A stretch of DNA of 64,000 bases from Verrucomicrobiota bacterium (GTDB lineage: Bacteria; Verrucomicrobiota; Verrucomicrobiia; Limisphaerales; J093): contig JAXGQW010000012.1 in NCBI GenBank assembly GCA_040766265.1, forward strand, positions 7,901 to 71,900, given 5' to 3'. The notes below the pieces were generated by a model, which did not search any database, was not told the origin of the DNA, and was given only the letters and a program-made list of their open reading frames with translations. Positions 8,242 through 63,183 of this stretch are shown one piece after another (position 1 is the first letter of the stretch; the number at the start of each line of letters is the position of its first letter). The translations under genes were made by a program, and so were the position numbers.

Positions 8242-8314
8242 CCAACCCGCACAGCAGACATGTTGCGCAATCTGACCGCCCTGTGCACTGACGGGGTGTG
8301 AAACATGCGGCTTA
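8242..8314. repeat. 74-nt CTAG-element, degenerate copy A1, split at its 3' TA by the IS630 insertion (last G at 9439)
   Basis: 'ccaacccgcac...ccctgtgcactgacggggtgtgaaacatgcggctta' aligns with the copies at 9602 and 44215. Confidence 0.8.
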
Positions 8315-8360
8315 TTCGATTTCGCTTTCAAGTTGAGACTAAGTATGCGATCATGGGCAC

Positions 8361-9433
8361 ATGGCAAGACCACGAAGAACGGATTTGTCTTTGGTCGTCA
8401 AGGCCCAGGCTGCCGCGGCCCAAGCCCAGGACCTGCAGGAGTTGCGCATGGCGCAGGCGGTGCTTCTGCCAGCGATCGCCAAGCTGACGCTGGAGCAAAC
8501 GGCAACGGCTTTGGGGGTCGGACGGGCGACCGTCGCCCGTTTGCAGACGCGCTTCCGGCGCAGCAGCAACAACATCCTCCCAACCCGCTCTGCCTGGGGG
8601 GGGCGACGCCGAGCTCTCCTGAGCCGGGAGCAAGAGGAGGCGTTTATGGCCACCTGGAAATCGCAGGCAGAGGCCGGCGAGTTGGTGGTGCTCACGCCCC
8701 TGCGGGCGGCGTTGGACCGGCAACTGGGCCGGCGGGTGAAGCCCTCGGTGGTGTATCGCTTGGTCCAACGGCACCGTTGGCGCAAAGTGGCTCCCGACAC
8801 GCGCCATCCGAAGGCCGATCCCGCAGTGCAGGCCCAATGGAAAAAAAAACGCTGCCCGAGAAGTTGGCGACCGTGCTGACGCCCGAAGCCGTGCAGGACC
8901 GCTGCATTCGCCTGATGTTTCAGGACGAGGCCCGTTTTGGGCGGATGGCCCGGATTCGCCGTTGTTGGGCGCCGGCACCGTTGCGTCCGACGGTGCGCAA
9001 TGGCTACGAGCGGGAATTCACTTACGTCTATGGCGCGGTCAGTCCCCGGGAAGGACACTTGGACTGGAGCCTGAGCGCGAAGATGAACACCGCCCAGATG
9101 AACGGTTTCTTGCTTCAGGTCAGTCAAGCGCATCGACAGGAATTCATTGTCATGGTTGTGGACGGAGCCAGTTCGCACAAGAGCAAGGACCTGGTGGTGC
9201 CGGAAAACGTTCGGTTGATTCCGCTTCCGGGGTACTCTCCGGAACTCAATCCCGAGGAACACATTTGGGATGAGGTGCGGGAGAAGGCCTTTCCGAACCT
9301 GGTGCTCGAGCGGATGGAGTTGGTGGTGGAGCGCCTCAAGCAGGAACTGAGCACGCTGGCAGCGGAGCCTGATCGGGTGCGGAGCATAACAGCCTGGCCT
9401 TGGATTGTTAGTCTCAACTTGAAAGCGAATTAG
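8361..9433 (+). CDS. IS630-family transposase, OrfAB produced by -1 programmed frameshift
   Basis: OrfA (8361..8879) has an HTH N-terminus. The downstream frame carries 'MFQDEARFG', 'VVDGASSHKS' and 'SPELNPEEHIWDEV', consistent with a DDE triad. The two frames are joined by a -1 shift on the A9 run. Confidence 0.85.
8841..8849 (+). promoter_or_regulatory. A9 slippery run, putative -1 frameshift site of the transposase
   Basis: 'caatgg aaaaaaaaa cgc'. The upstream frame stops 30 nt later at 8879. The -1 frame continues as KTLPEKLATV... into the DDE domain. Confidence 0.7.
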
Positions 9434-9438
9434 AATTA

Positions 9439-9597: not shown

Positions 9598-9601
9598 TTG
9601 T

Positions 9602-9675
9602 CTAACCCGCATGGGAGTCTTCTTGGGAAGTCTGAGTGCCCTGTGCACTATCGCGGTGTGAAACATGCGGGTTAG
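9602..9675. repeat. 74-nt CTAG-element A2
   Basis: CTAACCCGCAT...ATGCGGGTTAG. The right arm contains the TAA stop (9672-9674) of the epimerase gene. Confidence 0.9.
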
Positions 9676-12805: not shown

Positions 12806-13798
12806 ATGGTCCGGTCATTTGCATTCACCACGCAGGGGCGCCTGCACACGAAGGACATTGACGCCTTCCTGATGCCGACGCTGCTTGCCGACACGAACCT
12901 GTTCTTGTGGGTGGATCTCGAGGATCCGACGCCCGAGGAGAGCACGTTCTATCTGGATGGGGTGTTTCATTTCCATCCGCTCTCGATCGAGGACTGCGTC
13001 ACCGAGAGCCCGTCGCCCAAAGTCGAGGAGTACCTGCCCAAGGAGGGCGACCGCTTCACGCCCTATCTGTTCATGGTGATTCACGCGGTTGACTACAGCC
13101 GGAAAGACGGCGTGTTCGCCACCAGCGAGTTGAATTTCTTCCTCGGCAAGAATTTCCTGGTCACCTACCACGTCGTTCCGCTCAAGAGCGTCTCCCTCAC
13201 CTCCGAACGCTGCCTGCGCAGCAACGTCCACATCGCCCGCGCCCCCGACCGGGTGGCGCACACGCTCCTGGACACGCTGGTGGACAACTACAGGCCGGCC
13301 CTCGAAGAACTCTCGATCGAGATCGGCGACCTCGAGGACCAGGTGCTGCATCGCCCCGACGCGGAAACGCTCGATCATATTATCCAGATCAAGAAGGAAG
13401 TGCTGCATCTCCGCCAAATCATCGGCCCGCAGCGCGAAGTGCTGGCCCGCTTCGCCAGCGGCGAGTTCAAACTGATCCGCGCCCATCTGGTGCCCTATTA
13501 CCGCAACGTCTACGACGCCCTCCACCACATCTCCGAACTGGCCCAGAGCTACACCGATTCGGTCACTGGCATTCTGCAGGTCTACCTGAACATCTCGTCC
13601 AACCAGACCGGCGAGGTCATCAAACTGCTCACCCTGTTCACGATTGTGACCACGCCTCTGATGATGATCGGCACGTGGTATGGGATGAATTTCAAGAACA
13701 TGCCCGAGCTCGAAGGCGGTTATTGGATCGTTCTGGGTGTCATGCTCGCGAGCACGGCCGCCACCTACTGGTATTTCAAAAAGCGCAAATGGTTCTAG
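12806..13798 (+). CDS. corA: magnesium/cobalt transporter CorA
   Basis: 'YGMNFKNMPEL' (GMN motif) followed by two C-terminal TM helices. Confidence 0.92.
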   Translation: MVRSFAFTTQGRLHTKDIDAFLMPTLLADTNLFLWVDLEDPTPEESTFYLDGVFHFHPLSIEDCVTESPSPKVEEYLPKEGDRFTPYLFMVIHAVDYSRKDGVFATSELNFFLGKNFLVTYHVVPLKSVSLTSERCLRSNVHIARAPDRVAHTLLDTLVDNYRPALEELSIEIGDLEDQVLHRPDAETLDHIIQIKKEVLHLRQIIGPQREVLARFASGEFKLIRAHLVPYYRNVYDALHHISELAQSYTDSVTGILQVYLNISSNQTGEVIKLLTLFTIVTTPLMMIGTWYGMNFKNMPELEGGYWIVLGVMLASTAATYWYFKKRKWF

Positions 13799-13868
13799 CC
13801 CGCATATGTCACACCCCGTCTGTGCACAGGGCACTCAGACTTCGCAAGAGGACTGCTATGCGGGCTAG
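13795..13868. repeat. 74-nt CTAG-element A3 (inverted relative to A2)
   Basis: CTAGCCCGCAT...ATGCGGGCTAG. The left arm contains the corA TAG (13796-13798). Confidence 0.9.
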
Positions 13869-13940: not shown

Positions 13941-13957
13941 GAGGCGTCCCGCCGGCC

Positions 13958-15313: not shown

Positions 15314-15318
15314 ATGAG

Positions 15319-15400: not shown

Positions 15401-15474
15401 CTAGCCCGCATATTGCACACCCCGATGGTGCCCAGGACACTCAGACTTCGCAAGAGGACCACTATGCGGGCTAG
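15401..15474. repeat. 74-nt CTAG-element A4
   Basis: CTAGCCCGCAT...ATGCGGGCTAG, with an A-class interior. Confidence 0.9.
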
Positions 15475-15478
15475 AGAA

Positions 15479-15590
15479 GCAAAACCGCGCCAGGTTCGAG
15501 AGATCGAGAACTGCAACACACTGTTCCCATGACAGACCACTCTCGGGACCGACAGAAAACTCCCGGTTCCCTTTCTGGGCGCGGTTTTGC
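15479..15590. repeat. 112-nt module B2 (inverted copy of B1)
   Basis: Same 13-bp arms. The interior is close to the reverse complement of 9499-9584. Confidence 0.85.
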
Positions 15591-15594
15591 CAGA

Positions 15595-15637
15595 GCCCGG
15601 GTGTCGGACTCCGCGGAGCTTTGTGAAACAACCGGGC
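15595..15637. repeat. 43-nt hairpin module F2
   Basis: Reverse complement aligns with 9439-9481 ('tttcacaaagct.cgcggagt'). Confidence 0.75.
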
Positions 15638-15647
15638 TAGCCCGCAT
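15637..15647. repeat. terminal remnant (CTAGCCCGCAT) of a 74-nt CTAG-element
   Basis: Only the 11-nt arm is present. Its last two nt plus the next G form the queE ATG. Confidence 0.6.
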
Positions 15648-16380
15648 GCCCGATCATCTGACCGTCAACGAGATCTACCTCGGCGTGCAGGGCGAAAGCA
15701 CATTCGCCGGTCTGCCGTGCGTCCTGATCCGGCTCACGGGATGCAATCTGCGCTGCTCGTATTGCGACACCGCCTATGCGTTCAGGCAAGGCCGCCGTCG
15801 GACGCTCGAGGACGTCCGGGCCGAGGTCCGCCGTTTGGCGGCGCCCTATCGCGCCGTTCGCCGGCCGGTCTCGATTCCCTTGGTCGAGTTGACGGGCGGC
15901 GAGCCGCTTCTGCAGCCGGGATCGCTGCCGCTGCTCGAAGCGTTATGCGACGACGGTTACACCGTGCTGCTCGAGACCAGCGGCGCGCTCGACATCGCGC
16001 CGGTCGACACCCGCGTGCGGCGCATCATGGATCTCAAGTGTCCGAGCAGCGGCGAGAGCGCCCAAAACCGATGGGAGAACCTGGCGCACCTGCGGGCGAC
16101 CGACGAAGTGAAGTTCGTGATCGGAACCGAACAAGACTACCGCTGGGCGCGGCAGGTCGTCTCCGAGCGCCGCCTCGATGAGATGTGCCCGCTCCTGTTC
16201 TCCTGGGTTTCGCCGCTCGGAGCCCGGCAGTGCGATCCGTCCCTCAAGTCCTCCCCCCCCGGCCAGACCCCGATCTCGCGGCGCGCTCTCGCCGAGCGGA
16301 TCATTGCGGATGCTCTGCCGGTTCGTTTCCAGGTGCAATTGCACAAGGTCATCTGGCCCGCAGACCAACGAGGCGTTTGA
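15646..16380 (+). CDS. queE: 7-carboxy-7-deazaguanine synthase (radical SAM)
   Basis: 'EIYLGVQGESTFAGLPCVLIRLTGCNLRCSYCDT'. I set the start to ATG 15646, because the upstream part of ORF-track 15529.. is repeat sequence. Confidence 0.9.
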   Translation: MPDHLTVNEIYLGVQGESTFAGLPCVLIRLTGCNLRCSYCDTAYAFRQGRRRTLEDVRAEVRRLAAPYRAVRRPVSIPLVELTGGEPLLQPGSLPLLEALCDDGYTVLLETSGALDIAPVDTRVRRIMDLKCPSSGESAQNRWENLAHLRATDEVKFVIGTEQDYRWARQVVSERRLDEMCPLLFSWVSPLGARQCDPSLKSSPPGQTPISRRALAERIIADALPVRFQVQLHKVIWPADQRGV

Positions 16381-26847: not shown

Positions 26848-26921
26848 CTAACCCGCATATTGGACGCCCCGTTCGTGCACAGGGCGGTCTGAATTCGCAA
26901 GCAGACTGCCATGCGGGCTAG
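26848..26921. repeat. 74-nt CTAG-element A6, lying inside the 3' end of the next CDS
   Basis: CTAACCCGCAT...ATGCGGGCTAG with an A-class interior. Confidence 0.9.
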
Positions 26922-28794
26922 ATCCGGGCTCCCCGAGAAGAACCGGAAGCAGTGTCAGGGCGTCCCGGAAGTCCGGGATGACCACGTCCGCGCCCACGCC
27001 CAGCAGGCGCTGCCGCTTCCACTCGTCGAACTGTCCCGAGCCGTTGTTGGCTTCGTCGCTGGCCACGGCGACGGCCAGGCCGCCGACCTCCTTCGTGTTT
27101 TGAATCTCGACGTAGCCGTCGCCGAACGAGAGCAACTGGGCGCCGTCGATACGGTTCTCCCGCAGGATGCGGTCGATCACCATCTTCTTCGAGAACTGTT
27201 TGTAGTCGTCGAGGGCGCCGTAGATGCGTGGGCCGAAGTACTGGGAGAGCCCCAGGGCCGCGGCCTCCTGTTTCACGAACACCTCGTCCGTCCCGCTGGC
27301 CAGGTAAAGCGAGAACCCGCGCCGCCGCAGCTCGTCGAGAAACGGGCGGGCTTCGAAGACGAGCAGATCGTCCGGCTCGAGCGTTCCGCCGGCGAGGGCG
27401 TCGATCCGATGGCGGATGCGGGCATCGAGCCGGCGCAGGTACTCGTGCTTGTACCAGAGCGGTTCGCGCGGCTCGCCTCCGCGCTCACGGATGCGCTCGG
27501 CCAGTTGGATCATCTGGTAGATCGTCTGCTTGCCGTTGAGCCGCATGATGTCCTCGAACGCCAACTGGCGCAGCGCCTCGGGCGTCTCGCCCGGTTGCGC
27601 CGGCAGCATCTCGACGAACATCGGCACCATCACATCCGGCCAGCCCTGCCGGATCAGCGACAGCGTGCCGTCAAAGTCGAACAGCACATGGCTGATGCCG
27701 GGGCGCGGCGCGAACGAGGGCGCGAATTCGACCAAACCGTGAAAAGACCCGCTTGCAGCCTGTTCTGGCGGTGTTGCGGCTTCGGGCTCGGGCCCTGTTT
27801 CCGCAATCTCGAGGTCTCCCGCTGCGGCCTCGGGGGTTTCGTTCGGCTCGATCAGGTGCGTTTCCTGCGGGCTGTCGATTGCCTGCGCCGGGCCGGACGA
27901 GACGCTGTCTCCCGGGGCGGCGGGCTGATCCGGGGAGTCGCCCGCGCTTCGAGGCGGCGATGGCTGGGGCAAGGCCTCGACCGATGACGTTGAGGCTGGC
28001 GCCGCGGCACCAGGTTGAACGGTCACGAGGGCGCGCCGGAGCAACTGACCCTGAAACACATGTCCGACGGCCACGGTCTCGAGCACCGTCGCGCCCTCGG
28101 GGACCGTCGCCTTCGCATCGGGCAACTGGTGCTTCTCGGGGTCGAAGGGCGTGCCCGGGGCGGCCACGATGGGGACCATGCCGACGCGGCGCGCGGCATC
28201 GCGGCAGGCGTTCTGAAACTGGGTGAACTCGTGGATGAGCCCGGCCTGGCCGGACCGCACGCCGGCCAGGTAGAGGGCGTAGACATTGTCCAGGATGCGG
28301 ACGAGGACCTGGAGCCAGTCGCCCTCGGCGCGGCGGAGTTTCGTGGCCTCGAGGCGCAGGTGATGGCGCTCGGAGTCCTCCGCTCTCTGCATGAAGGCCT
28401 GGAAGGCGCGCTGCTCCTCGGTCATGCGATCGATGACCTCGCGCGCCGCGGCGACCGTTTTGCCGGCGTGTTCGTGCGCCGTTTGCCACTGGCCGGTGGC
28501 GGTCTCGATGCGGCCCGCGACATCCTGGACCTGCTCGATTTGCCGGAGGGTGTCGGCCAGGCCATCCATCTCGACGAGCTTGAGTTCGGCGTGGTGCCGG
28601 AGGCGAAAGGGCCACACGGCCAGCATGGCGCCCAGGGCCACGCAGGCGGCAAAAGCGCACACCTCGATGGCTGTCATGGGCCGGTGCGCCTGCTGCCAGA
28701 TCACCAGGGCGGCTGCCACCAGGAGGAGGTCGCCGACAACAAAGGGCAGAAAGAGCTTTGCGCCCAGGTTCACTCGAGTGGTGCGGTCCGTCAT
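26848..28794 (-). CDS. membrane-anchored GrpE-like domain fused to a HAD-family hydrolase
   Basis: Two N-terminal TM helices and a coiled coil, then 'ILDNVYAL...GTPFDPEKHQ...VGHVFQGQLLRRALVTV' (GrpE C-terminal pattern). A Pro/Ala/Ser linker follows, then 'VLFDFDGTLS...ASGTD...SFGDG' (HAD motifs I-IV). Start at ATG 28794; the upstream part of the ORF-track ORF is repeat sequence. Confidence 0.75.
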   Translation of the reverse strand: MTDRTTRVNLGAKLFLPFVVGDLLLVAAALVIWQQAHRPMTAIEVCAFAACVALGAMLAVWPFRLRHHAELKLVEMDGLADTLRQIEQVQDVAGRIETATGQWQTAHEHAGKTVAAAREVIDRMTEEQRAFQAFMQRAEDSERHHLRLEATKLRRAEGDWLQVLVRILDNVYALYLAGVRSGQAGLIHEFTQFQNACRDAARRVGMVPIVAAPGTPFDPEKHQLPDAKATVPEGATVLETVAVGHVFQGQLLRRALVTVQPGAAAPASTSSVEALPQPSPPRSAGDSPDQPAAPGDSVSSGPAQAIDSPQETHLIEPNETPEAAAGDLEIAETGPEPEAATPPEQAASGSFHGLVEFAPSFAPRPGISHVLFDFDGTLSLIRQGWPDVMVPMFVEMLPAQPGETPEALRQLAFEDIMRLNGKQTIYQMIQLAERIRERGGEPREPLWYKHEYLRRLDARIRHRIDALAGGTLEPDDLLVFEARPFLDELRRRGFSLYLASGTDEVFVKQEAAALGLSQYFGPRIYGALDDYKQFSKKMVIDRILRENRIDGAQLLSFGDGYVEIQNTKEVGGLAVAVASDEANNGSGQFDEWKRQRLLGVGADVVIPDFRDALTLLPVLLGEPGSSPHGSLLANSDRPVHERGVQYAG

Positions 28795-28862
28795 GGGGCC
28801 GGAGGTTATGCCGGCGCACCCGCGGCTGGCCACGGAAAAGTTGCGTGAGGGCGGGGCGGGCG

Positions 28863-28995
28863 GTGCATGTGGTTGTTGTCGGTGCTTGTGTCGCCCGGTG
28901 AGGGCACCGGGGCTACACCGGTTGCAGACTCCCGGTGCAGGCCGCGTGCCCCCACGCAGCGCAAACCCGCTCCCCACCGACAATCTCCGATGCTG
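28863..28995. repeat. ~133-nt element E3 (inverted relative to E1/E2)
   Basis: Collinear with 35126-35258 and 51286-51418. Contains hairpins CCCGGTG-AGGG-CACCGGG and GCCGCGTG-CCCC-CACGC(A)GC. Confidence 0.85.
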
Positions 28996-34119: not shown

Positions 34120-34192
34120 CTAGCCTGCATGCTGACTTCTCTTGAGAACTCCGGCTTCGCGGTGGCAGAAAGTCGTGATAAATGCAGGCTAG
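34120..34192. repeat. 73-nt CTAG-element H1 (CTAGCCTGCAT...ATGCAGGCTAG)
   Basis: Arms carry a compensatory C>T/G>A change. The interior is related to that of 39126-39199. The right arm contains the TAG stop of the Yip1 gene. Confidence 0.85.
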
Positions 34193-34983
34193 CCGCCGAA
34201 CAGCCGCTGCAGAAAGTGCCCGGCGACGATCCAAAGGCCGGTCCAGAGCAGCCACAGCCCGAACACCCAGGCGGCGCTCTTGGCGAACGTGGCGCCGCTC
34301 AATCGCGACAGGCCGATCGCACGCACGGCGAGCACCCAGAACGCCACGACATCCACGGCGGACATCAAACCGTGCGAGAGGTTGGCCGGATCGAAATCCT
34401 TGACCAACAGCATCGCCAAGTTGGCCCCGGCGTACAAGCTCCCAAAAGCCACCATCATGAGCGTCTTGATCACCGATTCGAGTATCGCCAACATGCCGAT
34501 CAGCCCGGACACCTCGACGGCCTTCATGTACGTGAACTCTCCGCCCAGCGCGTACCTGCCCACCAGAAACGTGATGAGCGCCCACCAGAAGACGAGTCCG
34601 ACGGCCATCAGGGGCGGCGCGGCGAACATCGCCGCCTGCCGCATGATCTTCCCGAACTTCTCGATCGTCGGTCTCTGGGCTTCGAGTTGCTCACGGGTCA
34701 TCCGGCCTTGTTCGATCATCTTCTGGTATTGCGCCTCCTGCAGGTCGCTGATCTGCTGCGTGATCGCCTCCTGGTGAAGCACCAGCCACGCCCCAATCCA
34801 GCCGACCAGCGTCGCCAGCAGCGTCGGCACCAGCCAGTTGGCCGTTCGCGTCGGACTGGCCTTCACCTCGTCGAACACGTCGGCGGGCGTGGCAAAGACA
34901 TTGAGCATCCGCGCCCCCAGCGAGGTCGAGGCGGGGATCGGGGGTGCGTCGTCCGGCGAATCGAGGGGAGCACTGTCGTTCAT
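34189..34983 (-). CDS. Yip1-family membrane protein
   Basis: N-terminal soluble segment 'FATPADVFDEVK' followed by five TM helices. Start at ATG 34983 (MNDSAPLD). Confidence 0.7.
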   Translation of the reverse strand: MNDSAPLDSPDDAPPIPASTSLGARMLNVFATPADVFDEVKASPTRTANWLVPTLLATLVGWIGAWLVLHQEAITQQISDLQEAQYQKMIEQGRMTREQLEAQRPTIEKFGKIMRQAAMFAAPPLMAVGLVFWWALITFLVGRYALGGEFTYMKAVEVSGLIGMLAILESVIKTLMMVAFGSLYAGANLAMLLVKDFDPANLSHGLMSAVDVVAFWVLAVRAIGLSRLSGATFAKSAAWVFGLWLLWTGLWIVAGHFLQRLFGG

Positions 34984-35125
34984 AACGGCAAAGATCCAGA
35001 AATATACTGCGTTTGGCGTCGGCGACAATCTCCGAATGCGCCCGGTTCGTCAGCTACAACCCGACGCCGGGTTTGTACTTCACACCCGGAGTTCGCACCG
35101 GCCTCTTCCAACGCGGTCACACTCA

Positions 35126-37950: not shown

Positions 37951-39113
37951 GAGGCGCGGGCGGCCAGGCGACCGGGGCGCCGGCCGGGGGGGCGTCCGAC
38001 GATCTGGACCAGGGCCTGTTGGAGGACGAGAGCTTCCTCGAGTTGACTCGACACGAGGCGGCGGTTGGAGACGAGCAGAACGTCCATCGCCCGCACCAAC
38101 TCCTCGGCCGTGTACTGTCCGGCCTGGGGCAGCGCCTTGAAGAGGACATACGGATGCATGGCAGCCGGGTTGTAGCGCTTGTCGTCGGGCATGGCTTCGG
38201 ACGGCAGCCGTCCCAACTGAGACTTGAAGCGGCTGTAGTCGACGTCCGGCGCGAGCAGGCCGAGTCGGAACATCTCCTTGAGGAGGAGCAGCGTGCGCAC
38301 CTTCGAGATGAGCCCATACAAAAGCCCGATCGCGGTCTTCTGGCGATCGAACTGCATCTCCCACAATTCCTCGTCGAGGCAACGGAGCGCGCGGGGCAGA
38401 TCGCGGTCCCCGAGGGCTTCGCCCAGGGCGAAGGCGCGCGCCTGTTTGTTGCGGCTCACGACCGCATGCACGTCGGCCACGGTGATTTCGGGGCGTCCGG
38501 CGGCGTAGAGCGAGAGCTTCTCGATTTCCTGCGACAACTGGCGCAGGTTGGGGCCCACCGCCGACACCAGTTCGCCGAGCGCTTCATCCGACATCTCCTG
38601 CCGGCGCGTCCGCAATTCGCCTCGGACGAATCGCTCCGCCTGGTCGGCCCAATCCTTGTCGTCGGCCGACAGTCCGGCGAGGGACTCGACGGCCCCCAGT
38701 TTCTCGATGGTTTTCGAGAAGGTTTTCCGGCGGTCGACCTTTCCGGCGGTGATGAGCAGGCGCACGTTGTCCCACGGGAAGCGCTTGAGTTCCTGGGCCA
38801 GGTCGTTCAGGGACGCGGTGACGGCCTGGGCGCCGGCAACACGTTCGTCTCCCAGGAAATTGCAGTGGCGCAACCAGATGACTTTGCCGCTGCCGAAGAA
38901 GGGCAGGGTCTGGAGCGCCTCGCGGAGTTTGGCCAGGGACCGGAGCGCCTCGTGACTGTTCGAGACGGTGGCGTCGATGGTCTCATGGTCCATCCCGCCA
39001 ATCTCCTTGCACCAGTCCGCATACAATTGCCGACCCCGCTGCAGCACGGCGAAATCGTCCTCGCCGCACACGAGCACCAGGGGTGCGGCGGGCTTGGGCT
39101 GGGCTGCCTTCAC
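37947..39113 (-). CDS. holA: DNA polymerase III subunit delta
   Basis: 388 aa. 'LVLVCGEDDFAV', length and helical C-terminus are typical of HolA. GTG start. Confidence 0.75.
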   Translation of the reverse strand: MKAAQPKPAAPLVLVCGEDDFAVLQRGRQLYADWCKEIGGMDHETIDATVSNSHEALRSLAKLREALQTLPFFGSGKVIWLRHCNFLGDERVAGAQAVTASLNDLAQELKRFPWDNVRLLITAGKVDRRKTFSKTIEKLGAVESLAGLSADDKDWADQAERFVRGELRTRRQEMSDEALGELVSAVGPNLRQLSQEIEKLSLYAAGRPEITVADVHAVVSRNKQARAFALGEALGDRDLPRALRCLDEELWEMQFDRQKTAIGLLYGLISKVRTLLLLKEMFRLGLLAPDVDYSRFKSQLGRLPSEAMPDDKRYNPAAMHPYVLFKALPQAGQYTAEELVRAMDVLLVSNRRLVSSQLEEALVLQQALVQIVGRPPGRRPGRLAARAS

Positions 39114-39125
39114 GGGGTGCCCACG

Positions 39126-39199
39126 CTAACCCGCGTGGGTCCGCGTCTTGGAGTCTCCGGCGTCGCGGTGGTCACAACTCGGTGAAACATGCGGGTTAG
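39126..39199. repeat. 74-nt CTAG-element A7 (divergent interior)
   Basis: CTAACCCGCGT...ATGCGGGTTAG, 13 nt upstream of the holA start. Confidence 0.85.
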
Positions 39200-39242
39200 C
39201 CCGGATTTCTCACCACTGCGAAGATGACAAAGAAATCCGGGC
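39199..39242. repeat. 44-nt hairpin module F3
   Basis: CCCGGATTTCT...AGAAATCCGGG forms an 11-bp stem. Confidence 0.8.
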
Positions 39243-39246
39243 TGTG

Positions 39247-39358
39247 GCAAAACCGCGCCGGGAGAGGTGAAAGCCTGGGTCTGGTCGAGCGGGAAGACGC
39301 AGTCGCAAACCGACGCCCCGTTGCCTTCGTCCCTCCCTCCAACCCGGCGCGGTTTTGC
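39247..39358. repeat. 112-nt module B3 (same arms and length as B1/B2, unrelated 86-nt interior)
   Basis: GCAAAACCGCGCC at 39247-39259 and GGCGCGGTTTTGC at 39346-39358. Confidence 0.85.
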
Positions 39359-39362
39359 TTGG

Positions 39363-39436
39363 CTAGCGCGCATGAGTGCACCTTTCGATGACATCGGCTC
39401 CGCGTTGTTCAGAAGTTGTTGAGCAATGCGCGCTAG
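39363..39436. repeat. 74-nt CTAG-element D1 (CTAGCGCGCAT...ATGCGCGCTAG)
   Basis: Near-identical to 63110-63183. The right arm contains the TAG stop of the next gene. Confidence 0.9.
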
Positions 39437-39888
39437 GCGGCGCTCTCCCCGCCGGATTCGCTCATGCGTGCGAGGTATTCGGACATGTCGTCGACCTGGT
39501 CAAGGAGGCTGCGCGTGACGTAGATGGGGCGTTTCTGGGCGGTGGCCAGGGCCAGGCAATCGCTGGGGCGCGCATCGAGTTCCACGATCTTGCGGCCCAG
39601 TTCGTTTTGCTGCTGCAGGATCAGGCGGGCGAAGTAGGTCGCGTTCTTCAGTTCGGTGATCACCACACGCTCGACGCTGATGCCGAACGCGGTCAGGAGA
39701 TGAACGAACAGATCGTGCGTCAGCGGCCGCTCTTTCGGGGTGTCGCGCAGGAACATTCCGATCACCGCCCCCATGTTGTGCTCGACCTGGATGACAAAAA
39801 CCTTCTCGTCGTTGCCGACAAACACGGCGACGCCGTTGTTGGCCGGCAAGATGCCGCGAATCTCGACAGCCGCCACGTCCTGCTTCAT
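39433..39888 (-). CDS. bifunctional nuclease family (BFN/DUF151) protein
   Basis: 'VFVIQVEHNMGAVIGMFL...RPLTHDLFVHLL...ITELKNATYFARL...DARPSDCLALA'. Start at ATG 39888. Confidence 0.8.
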   Translation of the reverse strand: MKQDVAAVEIRGILPANNGVAVFVGNDEKVFVIQVEHNMGAVIGMFLRDTPKERPLTHDLFVHLLTAFGISVERVVITELKNATYFARLILQQQNELGRKIVELDARPSDCLALATAQKRPIYVTRSLLDQVDDMSEYLARMSESGGESAA

Positions 39889-40122
39889 GGGGTCAATGTA
39901 AGAGACCGGACGCAAAAGACAAGCCCACGCCATGACCCGCCAGCAGTCTAATCTGCCGTGTCGGCGTTTTGAGTAAAGACTCCGCTGCGGGAATCGCGAG
40001 GCCCTCTTCGGTGAGGGATGGAACCTGCCCCAGGCTCGATCGCGCCAGATGAGCCACCTGGCCGATCAACCCGCACTTCACGCTCGTCAAACCCGACCCA
40101 TTGGGCTACTTTTCCGGCGTTT

Positions 40123-41265: not shown

Positions 41266-41371
41266 TCGGTCGAGCAGTCCTCATGCGGGATCCGACCGCC
41301 ACGTCCGGTGACGGAGCGCGAAATCCCTTTTTTCCGTTGACTGGCGGAAGCTGCTTGATCAGGTTTCGCTC

Positions 41372-44110
41372 ATGATACAAAGGATCTCCGAGTTGATTCT
41401 TCTCACAGGGTTGCTGATTGGTTCGCCATCCGTGTGCGCGCGCAATATCGTCCTGTTCATCGGAGACGGCATGGGTTTCGAGCACGTTCAGGCGGGAAGG
41501 CTTTACCTCAATGGAACTGACACAACGCCCTTGTTCATGGAAACCCTGCCGTATGCAGGGGCGGCGATTACGGTGCTGCCAGGTGGAGGCGTGACGGATT
41601 CGGCGACCGCAGGAACCGCTCTCGCCACCGGTTACCAGCATCCGTCCGCCGGCACGATCAGCATGAACGCAGCCGGCTTGCCCGTGACAACGATTCTCGA
41701 ACGGGCAAGAGACGCCGGGCTGCGAACCGGCATTGTCACCACCGACGACATCGTCGGAGCGACACCGGCCGCCTTTGGCGCCCACGAGGCTTCCCGGGAT
41801 AACACTGCGCAGATTCGAAACGACTACCTTTGGGGCGATGCCCTGCACAGCCCGAGTTTGCCGACTGTCTTGTTGGGAGGCGGATACCTCTCGACGTTCG
41901 TAGAGGACGCCGTGTCGCCTGCGCTTGGGTATGCGTTTGCGGGTTCGGCGCAGACGCTCATGGAAATCGCTCCCGATCCTGGACGGGTATTGGGACTTTT
42001 CAAAGCCGGTCCATTGACCCGGGAGAACGATCGTTCGCTCGACAATGCCGAGCCTCGCCTCAGCCAGATGGCCACCGCCGCTCTCGCGTGGCTGACCCAG
42101 GCTCCCGGCGGTTTTTTCCTGATGGTCGAGGGCGCGTTGATCGACAAGATCAGCCACGAGGGCAACACGCCCAACGCGAAGAGCGACCTGCCACCTGAAG
42201 TCGCGCAATTCGACACGGCTGTCGCAGCCGTTTCCCAATGGCTCTCGAGCCGCGGTCTGTTGGGCGACACCCTGATCCTGGTCACCGCCGATCACGAAAC
42301 CGGATTGCTCGATGTGGTCGATGGACAAGAAATCACGCCGGGCACAATCCCGGCCATGACCCTCTACTCGACCGGACACAGCACTCGGAACGTTCCCGTT
42401 TTTGGCTCGTGGCCGCATGCTCTGGGCGGATCCTTGATTGACAACACGGAGACCTTCTTCGTCATGGAAGACTGGCTCATGGGTTTGGCGGGCGCGCCGC
42501 CCATCATCGAGGATCTGGATGTGGTCGAGATCACACGCGCCAGCGCGCGCGTCCGATGGCACACCGTGGAGCCGTCGACGACCCGGCTGGACTGTGGCGG
42601 CTTCGTCTTCGAGGACTTGAACCGCGTCCTGTATCACGAAGTGCTGCTCACCGGCCTCATCGAGGGTTCGTCCTACAGCGTCAACGTGGATTCGACCGAT
42701 CTCGCCGGCTTCACGGGACAAGCCAGCACCGATTTCACGACGGCCGCGCCGGACGTTAATGCCTATGTGCTCGCGGACCCTGTCGGGACGGGAACGCTGT
42801 CGGGATCGTACGGCAGCTTGATGCCTCCCTCCGACGGGCTTGTCCAGACAATCACGGAGGTGCCGGACGGGGTCGGATCGTCGCTCGATGTCGTCTACAC
42901 CCTCGGCACATCGGCTTCTCCCGCCGAGGTGATCTCGATCTCGCTTGACGTGCAGTTGACATGGGTCAACGCAGACCGATTTGCCGACGATCTCACGATC
43001 ATGGTGTGGGACTCCATGAACCAGTCTTTCGACTTCCTCGCATCCAACGCTGGCGGCCTCTTCGCTCTCGGGCCTGGGCATTTGTATTGGAATGACGCCC
43101 GCGGATGTTACTGCATCGATGTGCGTCTGAAAGACAGCGCCTCAATTGCCAAGGAGAAGAAAGGGAAGGTGAGTGTGGACGTCCTCTGGGCGGCGATCGT
43201 TGCTGGAGAACCGGATCTCGATCCCCCCGCGGTTCCATCCGATCTGGTGGCGACCCAGATCACGGACGGGGGCATGGACCTGACGGCCCAATTGGCCTGG
43301 ACAGCGAGTCATCCCAGCGATGTGGCGTATTACAAGATCTACCGGGGTGGGATCACGGTCGGAACATCCGCCACACCCGGTTTTGTCGACCGGGTGACTT
43401 CGGGAGGAACCTACAGCTACACGGTTTCGGCAGTCGATTCGGTCGGGAACGAAAGCGCCCCGAGTCTGGCGGCGTCGGTCTCTCTGGAGAACCTGTACGC
43501 GCCCTCGATTCCGTCCAATCTCACCGCGGTGGCAGGGGATGGTCAGGTGATGCTGGCCTGGAGCCCGAGCAGCGAAGCGGACATCGACGGTTACAATGTC
43601 TACGGCGGGTTGGACGCAGAGGCGATGGTCTGTCTGAACCAAGAACCTGTCTCAGCCAGCTCATACCTGGATGCAGGCCTCGAGAATGGCGTGACATACT
43701 ATTATGCCGTGGAGGCGGTCGATACGGGCGGAAGAATAAGCGGTCTCTCCACCGCGGTCTTCGCGATCCCCAGTTCGTTGCCGACTCTTCTGGCGACCAC
43801 GGACGGTTCTTTGGCCGCGGCGGGCAAGAATTGGAAGGCGGTCGCAAGTGTCGCGGTCCGCGATCAGTCGCAGAGCGCTGTCGCGGGAGTTTCGGTTTCC
43901 GGACAATGGTTCCTGGATTCGGCGCCGCTGCAAGCGCCGGTCGCCGGCGTCACGGATGCAGCGGGCGCCGTCACATTTGCGGCGCCTCTGGTCAAAGCCG
44001 CTCCGGGCCAAGTGTTCCAGTTTACTCTATTGGATGTGCAGTTGGCTGGATACCGATTTGATCTGGAAAACAGCGACGTCGTCTTCAGCGCGACGGTGCC
44101 CGCCAAATAG
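41372..44110 (+). CDS. alkaline phosphatase with C-terminal fibronectin-III-like repeats
   Basis: 'IVLFIGDGMGFEH', 'GGVTDSATAGTALATG' and 'VTADHETG' in the N-terminal ~400 aa. These are followed by repeated 'L.W..S...D...Y.(I/V)Y' FN3-type modules. Confidence 0.85.
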   Translation: MIQRISELILLTGLLIGSPSVCARNIVLFIGDGMGFEHVQAGRLYLNGTDTTPLFMETLPYAGAAITVLPGGGVTDSATAGTALATGYQHPSAGTISMNAAGLPVTTILERARDAGLRTGIVTTDDIVGATPAAFGAHEASRDNTAQIRNDYLWGDALHSPSLPTVLLGGGYLSTFVEDAVSPALGYAFAGSAQTLMEIAPDPGRVLGLFKAGPLTRENDRSLDNAEPRLSQMATAALAWLTQAPGGFFLMVEGALIDKISHEGNTPNAKSDLPPEVAQFDTAVAAVSQWLSSRGLLGDTLILVTADHETGLLDVVDGQEITPGTIPAMTLYSTGHSTRNVPVFGSWPHALGGSLIDNTETFFVMEDWLMGLAGAPPIIEDLDVVEITRASARVRWHTVEPSTTRLDCGGFVFEDLNRVLYHEVLLTGLIEGSSYSVNVDSTDLAGFTGQASTDFTTAAPDVNAYVLADPVGTGTLSGSYGSLMPPSDGLVQTITEVPDGVGSSLDVVYTLGTSASPAEVISISLDVQLTWVNADRFADDLTIMVWDSMNQSFDFLASNAGGLFALGPGHLYWNDARGCYCIDVRLKDSASIAKEKKGKVSVDVLWAAIVAGEPDLDPPAVPSDLVATQITDGGMDLTAQLAWTASHPSDVAYYKIYRGGITVGTSATPGFVDRVTSGGTYSYTVSAVDSVGNESAPSLAASVSLENLYAPSIPSNLTAVAGDGQVMLAWSPSSEADIDGYNVYGGLDAEAMVCLNQEPVSASSYLDAGLENGVTYYYAVEAVDTGGRISGLSTAVFAIPSSLPTLLATTDGSLAAAGKNWKAVASVAVRDQSQSAVAGVSVSGQWFLDSAPLQAPVAGVTDAAGAVTFAAPLVKAAPGQVFQFTLLDVQLAGYRFDLENSDVVFSATVPAK

Positions 44111-44214
44111 CGGCCGCGGCGCAAGAGCGGCCGCAGCATTCGTCCTCGGAGGGATGGCTGGCAGCGCGTCGGACTGCGAGGGTCCGGCGAGCTTGCCGTT
44201 GAGGGTTTGCTTTT

Positions 44215-44288
44215 CTAACCCGCATAGCAGTCCTCTTGCGAAGTCTGAGTGCCCTGTGCACCATAGGGGTGTGAAATATGCGGGTTAG
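44215..44288. repeat. 74-nt CTAG-element A8
   Basis: CTAACCCGCAT AGCAGTCCTCTTGCGAAGTCTGAGTGCCCTGTGCACCATAGGGGTGTGAAAT ATGCGGGTTAG. Confidence 0.9.
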
Positions 44289-44344
44289 GCTGGGATGTCC
44301 CGAGAGTCGCTTGACGGCCGGCAATGCGATGTAGCCTGCCTTCG

Positions 44345-45688
44345 TCATGCGTTGCGGGCCTCCCTCTCCAGCTTGCGCAGCCGATCCGTCAAGGCGGGCG
44401 AAGCTGTGAACAGGATTTTGCGGCCTCGTTTCTTTTGGTCCAAGACGCCGCGCTCGTGGAGGCCGAGCAAATCCGTGCGAGCGGTCTGATACACCACATT
44501 GTGGCTCTTCTGGTGGCTGGCGATGCTGTATTCCTGGAACGGATGTTTGAGGGCGTGCATGATCAACTCTGCCTGCCGGTGGTTGAAAAGGCCCAGCGCC
44601 GGCAGACGCGCCTCCACTTCCCGGACCTCCGTGGTCTTGCGGGCGATGTAGTCGTGCAATTCGACAATCGCCCGGCGGATGACTTTGGTCTGCGCGACGA
44701 GAAAATAGGTGAGGTCGTTATCGTCCGTCTCCGTGTGGAGAAACGAGCGGCCGTAGTCGACCGGGGCTTTGCGCAGGATGTTCGAGATGGAGATGAACTC
44801 AAACAGCCAATAGCCCGCGTGCAGCATGGCCCAGTAAAAGAGCGCCCGAGCCGTGCGTCCGTTGCCATCGACAAACGGGTGATCGTAGGCCAGCCAAAAA
44901 TGCAGCGCGATGGCCCGGACGACCGGGTGGACGAAATAGCCGGGCGACTTTCCGTTGGCGAAGTCACACATGGCCTGGAATCGCGCAGGCAGTTCGGCGG
45001 CCGGTGGCGGCTCGTGAAAAACCTCGCCGAAGTCGTTTCCGACGAGCCGCTTCTCGTCCGGCCGGCGAAAACGCCCAGCCGCTGCTGCATCCTCGAGGGT
45101 CTTCTCCGTAACCAAGCGGTGAATCGCCAGCACCGTCTCGGGCGAGAGCGGCTCCTTTTTCAACTCCGTGATCCGCTGCATGGTAACGTAGTTGTTCAGG
45201 ATCATCTGCTCGCTGGTGTCGCGCGGTGGGCGGCCGGTGCGGATCATCTCCTTGGCGACCTCGCGGGTCGTAACGGCGCCTTCCAACTGGCTGGACGTGA
45301 TTGCTTCTTCGATGAGGGAGCGGATGAGGTAGCGGTCTCGGGTCTGCGGATTGGTGATCGGCTCCGGAATTCCGATGGCGGAACCAGCCCCCACGTCGAT
45401 CTCATGCAACTCCGCTTGCACCGGGTCCGGCACGCAGAAGCTGAATGGCCGCCCCAACTTGTCCAGAAGAGGCAGGGGCTTGGACGCCCCAGTGCGTTGG
45501 AACTTGACCGCCAGCCACCATTCTTCAGAAGTGAACCCGGCGGGCGCAGGTAAATGCCGCAGCTTCTCCCAATGCGGATAGTCTGCGTAAGGCGTGCGGG
45601 ACAACTCCAAGATGGCGTTCAGGCGCTGGTTTGCGTCCTGTTGGCTGAGCAATTCCCGAAATGACGGCGGTTTTTGCGGCATTTTCAT
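44345..45688 (-). CDS. Fic family protein (class II, N-terminal inhibitory helix)
   Basis: Core 'HPFVDGNGRTAR' and an upstream 'SSQLEG' that fits (S/T)xxxE(G/N). Start at ATG 45688, with an alternative at 45682. GC is visibly lower than in the neighbours. Confidence 0.88.
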   Translation of the reverse strand: MKMPQKPPSFRELLSQQDANQRLNAILELSRTPYADYPHWEKLRHLPAPAGFTSEEWWLAVKFQRTGASKPLPLLDKLGRPFSFCVPDPVQAELHEIDVGAGSAIGIPEPITNPQTRDRYLIRSLIEEAITSSQLEGAVTTREVAKEMIRTGRPPRDTSEQMILNNYVTMQRITELKKEPLSPETVLAIHRLVTEKTLEDAAAAGRFRRPDEKRLVGNDFGEVFHEPPPAAELPARFQAMCDFANGKSPGYFVHPVVRAIALHFWLAYDHPFVDGNGRTARALFYWAMLHAGYWLFEFISISNILRKAPVDYGRSFLHTETDDNDLTYFLVAQTKVIRRAIVELHDYIARKTTEVREVEARLPALGLFNHRQAELIMHALKHPFQEYSIASHQKSHNVVYQTARTDLLGLHERGVLDQKKRGRKILFTASPALTDRLRKLEREARNA

Positions 45689-63109: not shown

Positions 63110-63183
63110 CTAGCGCGCATGAGTGCACCTTTCGATGACATCGGCTCCCCGTTCTTCAGAAGTTGGTGAGAAATGCGCGCTAG
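63110..63183. repeat. 74-nt CTAG-element D2
   Basis: CTAGCGCGCAT...ATGCGCGCTAG, with the same interior class as 39363-39436. The right arm contains the TAG stop of the next gene. Confidence 0.9.

What the first reader, a model, noticed from the sequence alone, without database searches (positions are those of the whole stretch)
44215..44288. Fixed-length 74-nt element superfamily with covarying CTAG-type terminal stems (11 loci in 64 kb)
Eight full copies are each exactly 74 nt: 9602-9675, 13795-13868, 15401-15474, 26848-26921, 39126-39199, 39363-39436, 44215-44288 and 63110-63183. Copy 34120-34192 is 73 nt. Copy 8242-8314 is degenerate and split by an IS, and 15637-15647 is a terminal remnant. 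Every copy begins CTA(A/G)C..GCAT and ends with the reverse complement. The 52-nt interiors fall into at least three poorly related classes. The arms differ between classes in a compensatory way (CCCG with CGGG, GCGC with GCGC, CCTG with CAGG). Strict length, a maintained 11-bp terminal stem and free interiors fit a hairpin-recognised mobile element or a structured RNA better than decaying debris. I cannot match it to any named repeat or RNA family.
Basis: seen in the sequence. Interest (0 to 1): 0.7.

Follow-up and report, generated by a model that had tools for sequence, protein, structure and literature searches.

The report
Miniature IS1380-family transposon copies at CTAG
The 74-base repeats are real, but they are most likely tiny gene-less derivatives (MITEs) of an IS1380-family insertion sequence that inserts at the rare CTAG site, often at a gene's stop codon, so this is an ordinary kind of mobile DNA rather than a new RNA.

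Summary
Eight copies are exactly 74 nt, one is 73 nt and one is degenerate, and all are bounded by CTA(A/G)C..GCAT and its reverse complement (0 expected by chance).

They are best read as MITEs of an IS1380-family insertion sequence. Full-length elements from Azoarcus, Rhodocyclaceae, a Pseudomonas putida plasmid and an IMG/VR contig encode a DDE_Tnp_1_4 transposase. Their ends read CTAG|CCCGCATTTCTCAC...GTGAGAAATGCGGG|CTAG. On this reading CTAG is the 4-bp target duplication and CCCGCAT... is the inverted repeat. IS1380A itself has CGCGGATTTCTCAC ends with a TCGA duplication.

- One arm of each window copy matches the IS end at 15-18 of 20 positions; the other arm keeps only the outer 11.
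- Relatives at about 95% identity differ in presence or absence of some elements, and one empty site holds a single CTAG.
- Hairpins with the same termini occur in more than ten phyla at 59-89 nt, so the fixed length is not general.
- No conserved interior fold and no Rfam match were found.
- Stop codons sit in the terminal CTAG because CTAG is depleted (19 found, 56 expected) and each insertion restores TAG.

Still open: no transposase was found in this lineage, and the outer 4-mers sometimes change in a complementary way.

The parts
8242..8314 (+). Degenerate class A copy (CCAA...CTTA). Its terminal TTAG is interrupted by an IS630-family IS.
9602..9675 (+). Class A copy, 74 nt, CTAA...TTAG. 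The right-end TTA supplies the TAA stop of the minus-strand MR_MLE gene (9672-10814).
13795..13868 (-). Class A copy, 74 nt. The left CTAG holds the TAG stop of corA. The right CTAG is shared with a 77-nt hairpin of another family (13865-13941). The copy is present in L099 and absent from relatives at 82% amino-acid identity.
15401..15474 (-). Class A copy, 74 nt. It lies inside a 399-nt tandem array of four CTAG/TAG-bounded units (15242-15640) that the close relative L099 lacks.
15637..15647 (.). CTAGCCCGCAT 11-mer identical to an element terminus. It is also present at the empty site of L099, so it is flank sequence or an old relic.
26848..26921 (-). Divergent class A copy, 74 nt, CTAA...CTAG. 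A minus-strand ORF with a HAD domain reads through it to its far TAG.
34120..34192 (+). Class C copy, 73 nt, arms CCTGCAT/ATGCAGG. The ortholog in L108 has CCTGCGT/ATGCGGG. The right CTAG holds the stop of the minus-strand ORF 34189-35028.
39126..39199 (+). Class C copy, 74 nt, CTAA...TTAG. Present in L106 and L108, absent from L107.
39363..39436 (+). Class B copy, 74 nt, arms CGCGCAT. The right CTAG holds the stop of the BFN-domain gene (39433-39933, minus strand). Present in L107, absent from L106 and L108.
44215..44288 (+). Class A copy, 74 nt (the finding's coordinates). It lies between convergent alkaline phosphatase and Fic genes. Its right arm CTAACCCGCATATTTCACACCCCTATGG resembles the transposase-distal end of the IS over about 28 nt.
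63110..63183 (+). Class B copy, 74 nt. Read inward, the right arm is CTAGCGCGCATTTCTCACCA. The right CTAG holds the stop of an MreB-like gene.
39196..39247 (+). Mini hairpin with arms TTAGCCCGGATTTCT...AGAAATCCGGGCT. These match the CCCGGATTTCTCAC ends of a sister IS1380 clade (L174, L175). The same unit occurs at 9436-9486 and, reverse-complemented, at about 15590-15640.
8315..9436 (+). IS630-family insertion sequence (Pfam DDE_3, about 22-bp inverted repeats, TA duplicated). It is not part of the family but is inserted into its terminal TTAG.

Best explanation
[quoted passage not shown] In this reading the outer CTAG is the 4-bp target-site duplication. CCCGCAT... and its complement are what remains of the transposon's terminal inverted repeats.

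A DDE transposase (Pfam DDE_Tnp_1_4) encoded elsewhere would bind the two ends, cut the element out or copy it, and insert it at another CTAG with a 4-bp staggered cut. CTAG is rare in this genome and is mostly tolerated where TAG is a stop codon. Copies therefore end up abutting gene 3' ends, and the duplicated CTAG restores the stop.

Each insertion creates a second CTAG. Later insertions of the same or other CTAG/TA-targeting elements can then pile up in tandem arrays that share CTAG borders.

Shown here: identity of the termini with autonomous ISs, CTAG on both flanks, a single CTAG at one empty site, insertion polymorphism among close relatives, and no ORF or conserved fold in the elements.

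Inferred: mobilisation by an IS1380-type transposase in this lineage, and tolerance of a weak second end. The left arm keeps only 7 nt of the repeat. One-ended transposition by IS1380-family elements (ISPme1) is described in PMC3281130; the comparable behaviour of ISEcp1 is from my memory.
For: 1. Full-length elements with a 459-460-aa transposase carry exactly these ends. The transposase matches PF13701 at E=2e-152 and sources name it 'IS1380 family transposase'.
- L154: CTAACCCGCATTTCTCAC...GTGAGAAATGCGGGCTAT.
- L160/L162 (Azoarcus taiwanensis) and L165-L168 (Rhodocyclaceae): CTAG|CCCGCATTTCTCACAC...GTGAGAAATGCGGG|CTAG.
- Pseudomonas putida KF715 plasmid pKF715A: the same ends, 1663 bp including both CTAGs.
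- L155: a truncated copy next to the same terminus.
- Sister clades at 63-68% amino-acid identity: CTAG|CCCGGATTTCTCAC (L174, L175) and CTAG|CCCGAATCTCTCA (Rhizobium).
- IS1380A of Acetobacter (52% identity): TCGA|CGCGGAAATCTCACA...GTGAGAAATCCGCG|TCGA. This is a homologous repeat with a 4-bp palindromic duplication.

2. One arm of every window copy matches CTAGCCCGCATTTCTCACAC at 15-18 of 20 positions. The other arm matches at 11-13 of 20.

3. L099 (about 95% nucleotide identity) lacks the 399 nt at 15242-15640 and has one CTAG there. L107, L106/L108 and the window carry different sets of elements in the BFN-holA spacer. Relatives at 82% amino-acid identity have no element after corA.

4. The distribution is patchy. 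Elements are nearly absent from 356 kb of other verrucomicrobial loci but present in more than 98 loci from many phyla.

5. Adjacent units share CTAG with a 4-nt overlap.

6. CTAG occurs 19 times against 55.8 +/- 6.2 expected, and 13 of the 19 are at element borders.

7. The only consensus structure is the terminal stem, and there is no Rfam match.
Against: - No IS1380-family transposase was found in the window or in any fetched verrucomicrobial locus (tblastn). A partner in this lineage is therefore unproven.
- The left arm keeps only CTAG plus 7 nt of the roughly 16-nt repeat.
- A simple 4-bp duplication predicts direct repeats. Three window copies instead have CTAA...TTAG, and other loci have CTGG...CCAG and CCAG...CTGG, which are complementary changes.
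- No clean empty site for a single 74-nt copy was obtained. The empty site found is for an array of four units, and it is followed by the repeat-like CCCGCAT.
- Exactly 74 nt across classes that are only 46-69% identical in the interior is not explained by descent alone.
Confidence: 0.85

Rival explanations
1. MITEs of the IS630/Tc1-mariner type. Here the element proper would be RCCCGCAT...ATGCGGGY, inserted at the TA of a CTAG target with a 2-bp TA duplication.
For: - CTAA...TTAG in three copies fits a repeat whose first base varies (A...T or G...C), flanked by TA inside C-TA-G.
- An IS630-family IS in the window inserted into a terminal TTAG with a TA duplication.
- IS630 and IS870 are known, from my memory, to prefer CTAG.
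Against: - Every autonomous element found with these termini encodes an IS1380-type transposase, not DDE_3.
- The inverted repeats of the window's IS630 copy are unrelated to these arms.
- IS1380A shows the homologous repeat with a 4-bp TCGA duplication.
Confidence: 0.05
2. A structured RNA, either a small RNA or a 3'-UTR element, whose 11-bp closing stem is kept by selection on the transcript. It could act for example as an mRNA-stabilising or terminating hairpin next to the stop codon.
For: - The terminal stem is 99.5% paired, with 4 pairs changed on both sides.
- Single sequences fold better than shuffles, with z from -2 to -4.3.
- By my manual placement against the rough gene calls and the flanks, about 9 of the 10 window copies have the same orientation relative to the upstream gene. 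I did not run a dedicated test of this.
- One in-situ compensatory change is seen in copy 34120 compared with L108.
Against: - There is no conserved interior structure and no Rfam match.
- In the verrucomicrobial loci I counted about 7 against 5 copies in the two orientations relative to genes, so there is no consistent bias.
- No T-tract follows the hairpin.
- Presence or absence varies among near-identical relatives.
- The stem sequence equals a transposon repeat plus its target duplication.
- Stem statistics are inflated because most sequences were fetched with a pattern requiring perfect arms.
Confidence: 0.05
3. REP/REPIN-like hairpins mobilised as single-stranded DNA by a RAYT or another HUH enzyme of the IS200/IS605 type, inserting next to a CTAG tetranucleotide.
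For: - The hairpin anatomy resembles REPINs, with conserved ends, a freer middle and tandem clusters.
- In the cross-phylum 59-61-nt forms, the stem is complementary beyond the transposon repeat.
- Complementary changes reach into the outer 4-mers.
Against: - The tetranucleotide is CTAG at both ends, not GTAG at one end.
- The arms are not themselves palindromes.
- No recurrent neighbouring protein family was seen in the 98 loci.
- The identity of the termini with a DDE transposon is sufficient to explain the elements.
Confidence: 0.03

Closest known systems
IS1380 family insertion sequences (IS1380A of Acetobacter pasteurianus; IS1247, ISPme1, ISEcp1)
   Same: The terminal repeat is homologous: IS1380A has CGCGGATTTCTCACAC, against CCCGCATTTCTCACAC in the partner ISs and in one arm of the window copies. 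The target duplication is a 4-bp palindrome (TCGA in IS1380A, CTAG here). The partner ISs encode a DDE_Tnp_1_4 transposase that is 52% identical to IS1380A.
   Different: The window elements have no transposase and are 74 nt rather than about 1.66 kb. One arm keeps only 7 nt of the repeat. IS1247 is reported with a 5-bp duplication (PMC3281130, Table 2), and ISEcp1 likewise from my memory, so duplication length varies within the family.
Bacterial MITEs in general (Correia elements, RUP, ERIC, MITEAba12, Tn3-derived TIMEs)
   Same: They are short and non-coding, with terminal inverted repeats matching an autonomous element. They have a target duplication, many copies in intergenic regions, and insertion polymorphism.
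   Different: - The parent family is different (IS1380).
- The target is the depleted palindrome CTAG, so copies sit on stop codons and stack in arrays.
- The same termini occur in more than ten phyla.

I found no paper that names this family.
REP/REPIN-RAYT systems
   Same: Hairpin-forming repeats of about 60-110 nt with conserved ends, clustered near gene 3' ends.
   Different: There is no GTAG. The arms are not palindromic REPs. The termini belong to a DDE transposon, and the distribution is patchy across phyla rather than vertical.
IS630/IS870 targeting of CTAG
   Same: Insertion at CTAG, with a junction that produces a TAG stop (IS870, from my memory). An IS630-family copy in the window used the TTAG end of a copy.
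   Different: The transposase family and inverted repeats are different, and IS630 duplicates only TA.

Membership tests
MITE (non-autonomous TIR transposon) | Short, with no coding capacity of its own | tested here: met
   The elements are 73-74 nt. The only ORFs crossing them belong to flanking genes.
MITE (non-autonomous TIR transposon) | Terminal inverted repeats homologous to those of an autonomous element | tested here: met
   One arm matches the IS end at 15-18 of 20 positions and the other at 11-13 of 20. Autonomous ISs with identical ends were found in L154, L160, L165 and L177.
MITE (non-autonomous TIR transposon) | Target-site duplication, with an empty site holding one copy of it | tested here: inconclusive
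   CTAG, or a one-base variant, flanks every copy. The L099 empty site has one CTAG, but that site is empty for a four-unit array and not for a single copy. CTAA...TTAG pairs do not fit a plain direct repeat.
MITE (non-autonomous TIR transposon) | Multiple copies with insertion polymorphism between close relatives | tested here: met
   There are 10 copies in 64 kb. The window, L099, L106/L108 and L107 differ in presence or absence.
MITE (non-autonomous TIR transposon) | Autonomous partner present in the same genome | not testable with these tools
   Only 64 kb of the genome is available. No DDE_Tnp_1_4 gene was found in the window or in any fetched verrucomicrobial locus.
IS1380 family (as the parent) | DDE_Tnp_1_4 transposase of about 460 aa between the same termini | tested here: met
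   PF13701 at E=2e-152. Sources name the protein 'IS1380 family transposase'. It is 52% identical to IS1380A.
IS1380 family (as the parent) | Repeat homologous to that of IS1380, starting with C, and a 4-5 bp duplication | tested here: met
   IS1380A reads TCGA|CGCGGAAATCTCACA...GTGAGAAATCCGCG|TCGA. The partner ISs read CTAG|CCCGCATTTCTCAC. The family values 'ends CC, DR 4-5 bp' are from my memory of ISfinder. IS1247 with a 5-bp duplication is in PMC3281130.
REP/REPIN-RAYT | Conserved GTAG at the 5' end of an imperfectly palindromic REP of 20-40 nt | tested here: not met
   The ends are CTAG on both sides, and the 11-20-nt arms are not self-complementary.
REP/REPIN-RAYT | A RAYT gene flanked by the repeats | not testable with these tools
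   No whole genome is available. No recurrent neighbouring protein family was seen in the 98 loci.
Described structured RNA family | Match to an Rfam covariance model | tested here: not met
   At gathering thresholds the only hit in the window is 6S RNA at 6844-7029. The E-value search of 39050-39500 gave only chance-level hits.
Described structured RNA family | Conserved secondary structure with covariation beyond the terminal stem | tested here: not met
   RNAalifold on 37 copies predicts only the 11-bp terminal stem.
IS630-family MITE | Repeats matching an IS630-family element | tested here: not met
   The repeats of the window's IS630 copy (TTCGCTTTCAAGTTGAGACTAA) are unrelated to the arms.
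Integron attC site | RYYYAAC...GTTRRRY cores following promoterless cassettes in one orientation | tested here: not met
   Most copies have CTAGC/GCTAG rather than AAC/GTT. They lie between syntenic housekeeping genes on both strands.

The most novel reading that the evidence does not exclude
The hairpin, and not just the two transposase-binding ends, may be what is maintained. Four observations point that way.

- Complementary double changes reach into the supposed target duplication (CTAA/TTAG, CTGG/CCAG, CCAG/CTGG).
- One orthologous copy shows a compensatory change that arose in place.
- The shortest cross-phylum forms are perfect stems of about 26 bp, well beyond the roughly 16-nt repeat.
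- Lengths cluster near 61-65, 74-76 and 84-87 nt.

This would mean one of two things. These IS1380-derived elements could be copied or corrected through a folded single strand. Alternatively, they could have been taken over as stop-codon-adjacent RNA or DNA hairpins whose length is constrained.
Probability: 0.15. Interest if true: 0.6.

Novelty: new member of a known kind. Interest (0 to 1): 0.35.

Why it matters
- **Annotation.** These repeats, and the same hairpins in many uncultured phyla, can be labelled as IS1380-family MITEs. That avoids calling them RNA genes or terminators, and it explains why contigs break at them.
- **A simple rule.** A transposon that targets CTAG, in a genome that avoids CTAG, lands on stop codons, restores them, and creates its own next target. 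This produces stacked arrays of small elements at gene ends.
- **Spread.** The near-identical 14-18-nt ends across more than ten phyla suggest wide horizontal spread of this IS clade.
- **Practical use.** The polymorphic arrays could serve as strain markers.

Tried and rejected
- **Rfam.** Neither the gathering thresholds on the whole window nor the permissive search on 39050-39500 gave a relevant family.
- **BLAST.** The composite and the 61-nt consensus against plasmids and phages gave nothing useful. The one Novosphingobium hit was chance.
- **Literature.** Searching by the terminus sequence, and by IS1380 with MITE or CTAG, found no description of this family.
- **Autonomous copy in the 98 genome loci.** Pairing termini at 0.15-4 kb gave only separate or nested small elements.
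- **Neighbouring proteins.** Clustering all ORFs of the 98 loci to find a recurrent neighbour gave none.
- **My first hypotheses.** An IS110 insertion next to the copies was wrong: the shared flank is a 162-nt repeat unit and the IS is of the IS630 family. An IS630-type TA model was set aside once IS1380 partners were found.
- **Orientation relative to genes.** It looks biased in the window, but I counted about 7 against 5 in the other verrucomicrobial loci.
- **Verrucomicrobial-type end in viral contigs.** The search gave only one solo terminus.
- **Lookup by exact protein.** The window's corA ORF was not on record.
- **Length periodicity.** It is only suggestive. The range was cut to 59-89 nt by the search pattern, the subfamilies are not independent, and several periods were tried.

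Full report
**1. The observation**

Reading the window confirms every coordinate. Eight copies are exactly 74 nt, 34120-34192 is 73 nt, and 8242-8314 is degenerate. Each begins CTA(A/G)C..GC(A/G)T and ends with the reverse complement.

The pattern CTARCNNGCAT-N52-ATGCNNGYTAG matches 7 times, against 0.00 in 100 dinucleotide-preserving shuffles. A general scan for YTAR-bounded 11-nt inverted repeats finds 10, against 0-3 in shuffles.

Copies 13795, 15401 and 26848 are reverse complements of the 9602/44215/8242 type. After orientation there are three classes:
- Class A: six copies, 69-90% interior identity.
- Class B: 39363 and 63110, 92%.
- Class C: 39126 and 34120, 62%.

Between classes the interiors are 46-69% identical, with no length difference.

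The window is 64% G+C. CorA homologues place it in Verrucomicrobiota.

**2. Surroundings**

The copies lie in intergenic DNA, hard against gene ends. The stop codon of the flanking gene lies inside the terminal CTAG/TTAG in five cases:
- 9672 (MR_MLE-type enolase gene)
- 13796 (corA)
- 34189 (ORF 34189-35028)
- 39433 (BFN-domain gene)
- 63180 (MreB-like gene)

Across 104 elements from many genomes, about 59% have an ORF of at least 100 codons ending in the terminal TAG/TAA.

CTAG itself is depleted: 19 sites against 55.8 +/- 6.2 expected. Thirteen of the 19 are borders of these or neighbouring hairpin units.

The copies often sit in tandem arrays with other small inverted-repeat units, and neighbours share the 4-nt CTAG/TTAG:
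- 13795-13868 plus a 77-nt unit at 13865-13941.
- A four-unit array at 15238-15640.
- 39126-39199, then a 163-nt unit, then 39363-39436.
- The same three-part layout at 8242-9675, there interrupted by an IS630-family IS (8315-9436; Pfam DDE_3; TA duplicated).

**3. Relatives elsewhere**

I scanned one genome per species for CTAGCCCGCAT-N37-67-ATGCGGGCTAG. About one match would be expected by chance, by my own estimate.

The hits are from Verrucomicrobiota, where 74 nt is the mode, and from many other groups. These include Gammaproteobacteria (with cultured Thioalkalivibrio), Acidobacteriota (with Acanthopleuribacter), Nitrospira, Planctomycetota, Myxococcota, Chlamydiia, Bdellovibrionales, Hydrogenedentota, Desulfuromonadaceae and Mariprofundaceae. 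Lengths run from 59 to 89 nt.

Outside Verrucomicrobiota the conserved end is longer, CTAGCCCGCATTTCTCACCA. The shortest forms are perfect stems of about 26 bp with a loop such as GTCGCAGTA.

Within Verrucomicrobiota, copies of 71, 72, 75, 76 and 77 nt also exist. Strict length is therefore a feature of the local subfamilies, not of the family.

**4. Mobility**

L099, a metagenome contig with about 95% nucleotide identity, keeps the corA copy with three substitutions. One of these is an uncompensated change in an arm. L099 lacks the 399 nt at 15242-15640. At that place it reads CCGC-CTAG-CCCGCATG, that is, kinase stop TAG followed by the radical-SAM start ATG.

Three other contigs with about 95% nucleotide identity (96-97% amino-acid identity in holA) differ in the BFN-holA spacer:
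- L107 has only the 39363 copy.
- L106 and L108 have the 39126 copy followed by a different MITE of about 290 nt.
- The window has 39126, the 163-nt unit and 39363.

Relatives at 82% CorA identity end corA with TGA and have no element there. In 356 kb of more distant verrucomicrobial loci the family is almost absent. This patchy, polymorphic pattern is what a mobile element gives.

**5. The autonomous partner**

Searching viral contigs for TAGCCCGCATTTCTCAC gave eight loci. One of them, L154, has both termini 1.7 kb apart around a 483-aa ORF. That ORF is a DDE_Tnp_1_4 transposase (PF13701, E=2e-152). L155 has a truncated copy of the same gene at the same distance from the same terminus.

Its homologues are labelled 'IS1380 family transposase'. 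The DNA around several of them shows the same architecture:

| Source | Ends |
|---|---|
| Azoarcus taiwanensis; a Rhodocyclaceae MAG | CTAG\|CCCGCATTTCTCACAC...GTGAGAAATGCGGG\|CTAG |
| P. putida KF715 plasmid pKF715A (1663 bp including both CTAGs) | the same ends |
| Members at 67-68% identity (L174, L175) | CTAG\|CCCGGATTTCTCAC |
| Rhizobium plasmid | CTAG\|CCCGAATCTCTCA |
| IS1380A of Acetobacter (52% identity) | TCGA\|CGCGGAAATCTCACA...GTGAGAAATCCGCG\|TCGA |

So CCCGCAT... is the inverted repeat of this IS clade, and CTAG is its 4-bp palindromic target duplication.

In the window copies, one arm matches CTAGCCCGCATTTCTCACAC at 15-18 of 20 positions. In class A the resemblance to the transposase-distal end of the IS runs about 28 nt. 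The other arm keeps only CTAG plus 7 nt.

The CCCGGAT variant explains the mini hairpin at 39196-39247 and its two other occurrences. The CGCGCAT arms of class B recall the CGCGGAT of IS1380A.

**6. Mechanism**

The best-supported reading is that these are non-autonomous derivatives of an IS1380-family IS, moved by a transposase supplied in trans and inserted at CTAG.

Three features then follow without any special function:
- Copies sit on stop codons because CTAG is avoided elsewhere, and because the duplication regenerates TAG for a gene on either strand.
- Arrays form because every insertion makes a second CTAG next to itself. The window's IS630 copy inserted at the TA of a terminal TTAG, which shows other elements using these borders too.
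- The arms co-vary between classes because both ends must match the same transposase, and because subfamilies descend from IS variants with matched ends.

The weak left arm is compatible with the known looseness of this family about its second end. ISPme1 moves adjacent DNA from a single IS copy (PMC3281130); the comparable behaviour of ISEcp1 is from my memory.

No partner gene was found in this lineage. Present-day mobility here is therefore inferred only from the polymorphism.

**7. The RNA idea**

Individual copies fold better than shuffles, with z from -2 to -4.3. On 37 verrucomicrobial copies, however, RNAalifold predicts nothing but the 11-bp terminal stem.

That stem is 99.5% paired, with four pairs changed on both sides. 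It is the transposon repeat plus the palindromic duplication, and most sequences were collected with a pattern that demanded perfect arms.

Rfam has no match. No T-run follows the hairpin. In the other verrucomicrobial loci I counted about 7 against 5 copies in the two orientations relative to genes.

**8. What remains unexplained**

- **Outer 4-mers.** They sometimes change in a complementary rather than a direct way. Three window copies have CTAA...TTAG, and other MAGs have CTGG...CCAG and CCAG...CTGG. Copy 34120 has CCTG/CAGG where its ortholog in L108 has CCTG/CGGG, which is a compensatory change that arose in place. Possible causes are hairpin-templated correction, selection for the hairpin, or a 2-bp TA duplication with a variable first base. 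I could not separate these.
- **The empty site.** It carries the repeat-like CCCGCAT next to CTAG. This could be an old relic or a target preference.
- **Fixed length.** Three diverged classes share exactly 74 nt, and lengths across phyla cluster near 61-65, 74-76 and 84-87 nt. The statistical support is weak because the range was truncated and the subfamilies are not independent. A helical-phasing constraint on very short elements is a possible, untested reason.

**9. Verdict**

The 'structured RNA' and 'strict length' halves do not.

The elements are a new, apparently unnamed MITE family of a well-known IS family. They are of interest mainly for annotation, for the link between CTAG and stop codons, and for their breadth across phyla.

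Noticed in passing
window 8315-9436: An IS630-family insertion sequence. The ORF at 8333-9433 (+) matches Pfam DDE_3, and the inverted repeats of about 22 bp read TTCGCTTTCAAGTTGAGACTAA. It is inserted with a TA duplication into the TTAG shared by copy 8242 and the next unit. Removing it and one TA restores the junction seen at 39199.
   Followed up: partly
window 9436-9601, 15471-15640 (reverse complement), 39196-39362: A 162-170-nt unit (coordinates include the shared YTAR borders) that always lies between two 74-nt copies, or between a copy and CTAGCCCGCAT. It consists of a mini hairpin with CCCGGAT arms plus a unit with a 13-16-bp inverted repeat, GCAAAACCGCGCC...GGCGCGGTTTTGC. The interior varies, but the span from the start of AAAACCGCGCC to the end of GGCGCGGTTTT is exactly 108 nt in all three. 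The unit is also found in other verrucomicrobial MAGs (L002, L041, L055, L094). Its parent element is unknown.
   Followed up: partly
window 13865-13941 and 15238-15314: A second hairpin family of 77 nt, with ends CTAGAGTCCTTGACC...GGTCAAGGATTCTAG. It shares its CTAG/TAG border with neighbouring units. A related copy is in L103.
   Followed up: no
window 15314-15404; L103 1115-1207: A third small inverted-repeat family with arms GCGAGGCGCG...CGCGCCTCGC, again bounded by CTA/CTAG.
   Followed up: no
L106 and L108, BFN-holA spacer (L108 about 9627-9915): Close relatives carry a MITE of about 290 nt with ends TTAAGGGTTTGTGCAAAA...TTTTGCACAGACCCTAA at the place where the window has the 163-nt unit and copy 39363.
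   Followed up: no
window 15637-15648 and L099 2477-2488: The empty site reads CTAGCCCGCATG. The stop of the PAS kinase, a 7-nt match to the transposon repeat, and the ATG of the radical-SAM gene are packed into 12 nt. Chance, an old relic and a target preference were not separated.
   Followed up: partly
window 26848-28983 (- strand): One long ORF has a GrpE match (residues 181-322) and a HAD hydrolase match (431-635). It reads through the whole of copy 26848-26921 and stops at the copy's far TAG. The element may therefore contribute about 24 C-terminal codons. The ORF is probably two genes in one frame.
   Followed up: partly
whole window: CTAG occurs 19 times against 55.8 +/- 6.2 expected from dinucleotide-preserving shuffles. 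Only 6 of these sites are not at a border of a small inverted-repeat element.
   Followed up: yes
window 41266-44402 compared with L108 5297-5316: The roughly 3.1-kb segment holding the alkaline phosphatase/fn3 gene and copy 44215 is absent from the close relative L108. Conversely, L108 has about 2.5 kb (6629-9122) that the window lacks near 39945.
   Followed up: no
L159 and L157 (IMG/VR contigs): The two ends of the contig are reverse complements of each other over more than 100 nt and start at the IS1380-type terminus. This suggests a long palindromic variant, or an assembly break at the repeat.
   Followed up: no
L155 about 11560-11712: A tyrosine-recombinase (integrase) reading frame ends at the TAG of the terminus TAGCCCGCATTTCTCAC. 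This looks like an IS1380-type insertion into an integrase gene.
   Followed up: no
window 6844-7029 (+): 6S RNA (RF00013, 55 bits), the only Rfam match in the window at gathering thresholds. It contains one of the few free CTAG sites (6898).
   Followed up: no
98 genome loci: Element lengths cluster near 61-65, 74-76 and 84-87 nt, a spacing of about 10-11 nt. The Rayleigh test gives about 1e-3 to 1e-4. The range was truncated by the search pattern and the subfamilies are not independent.
   Followed up: partly
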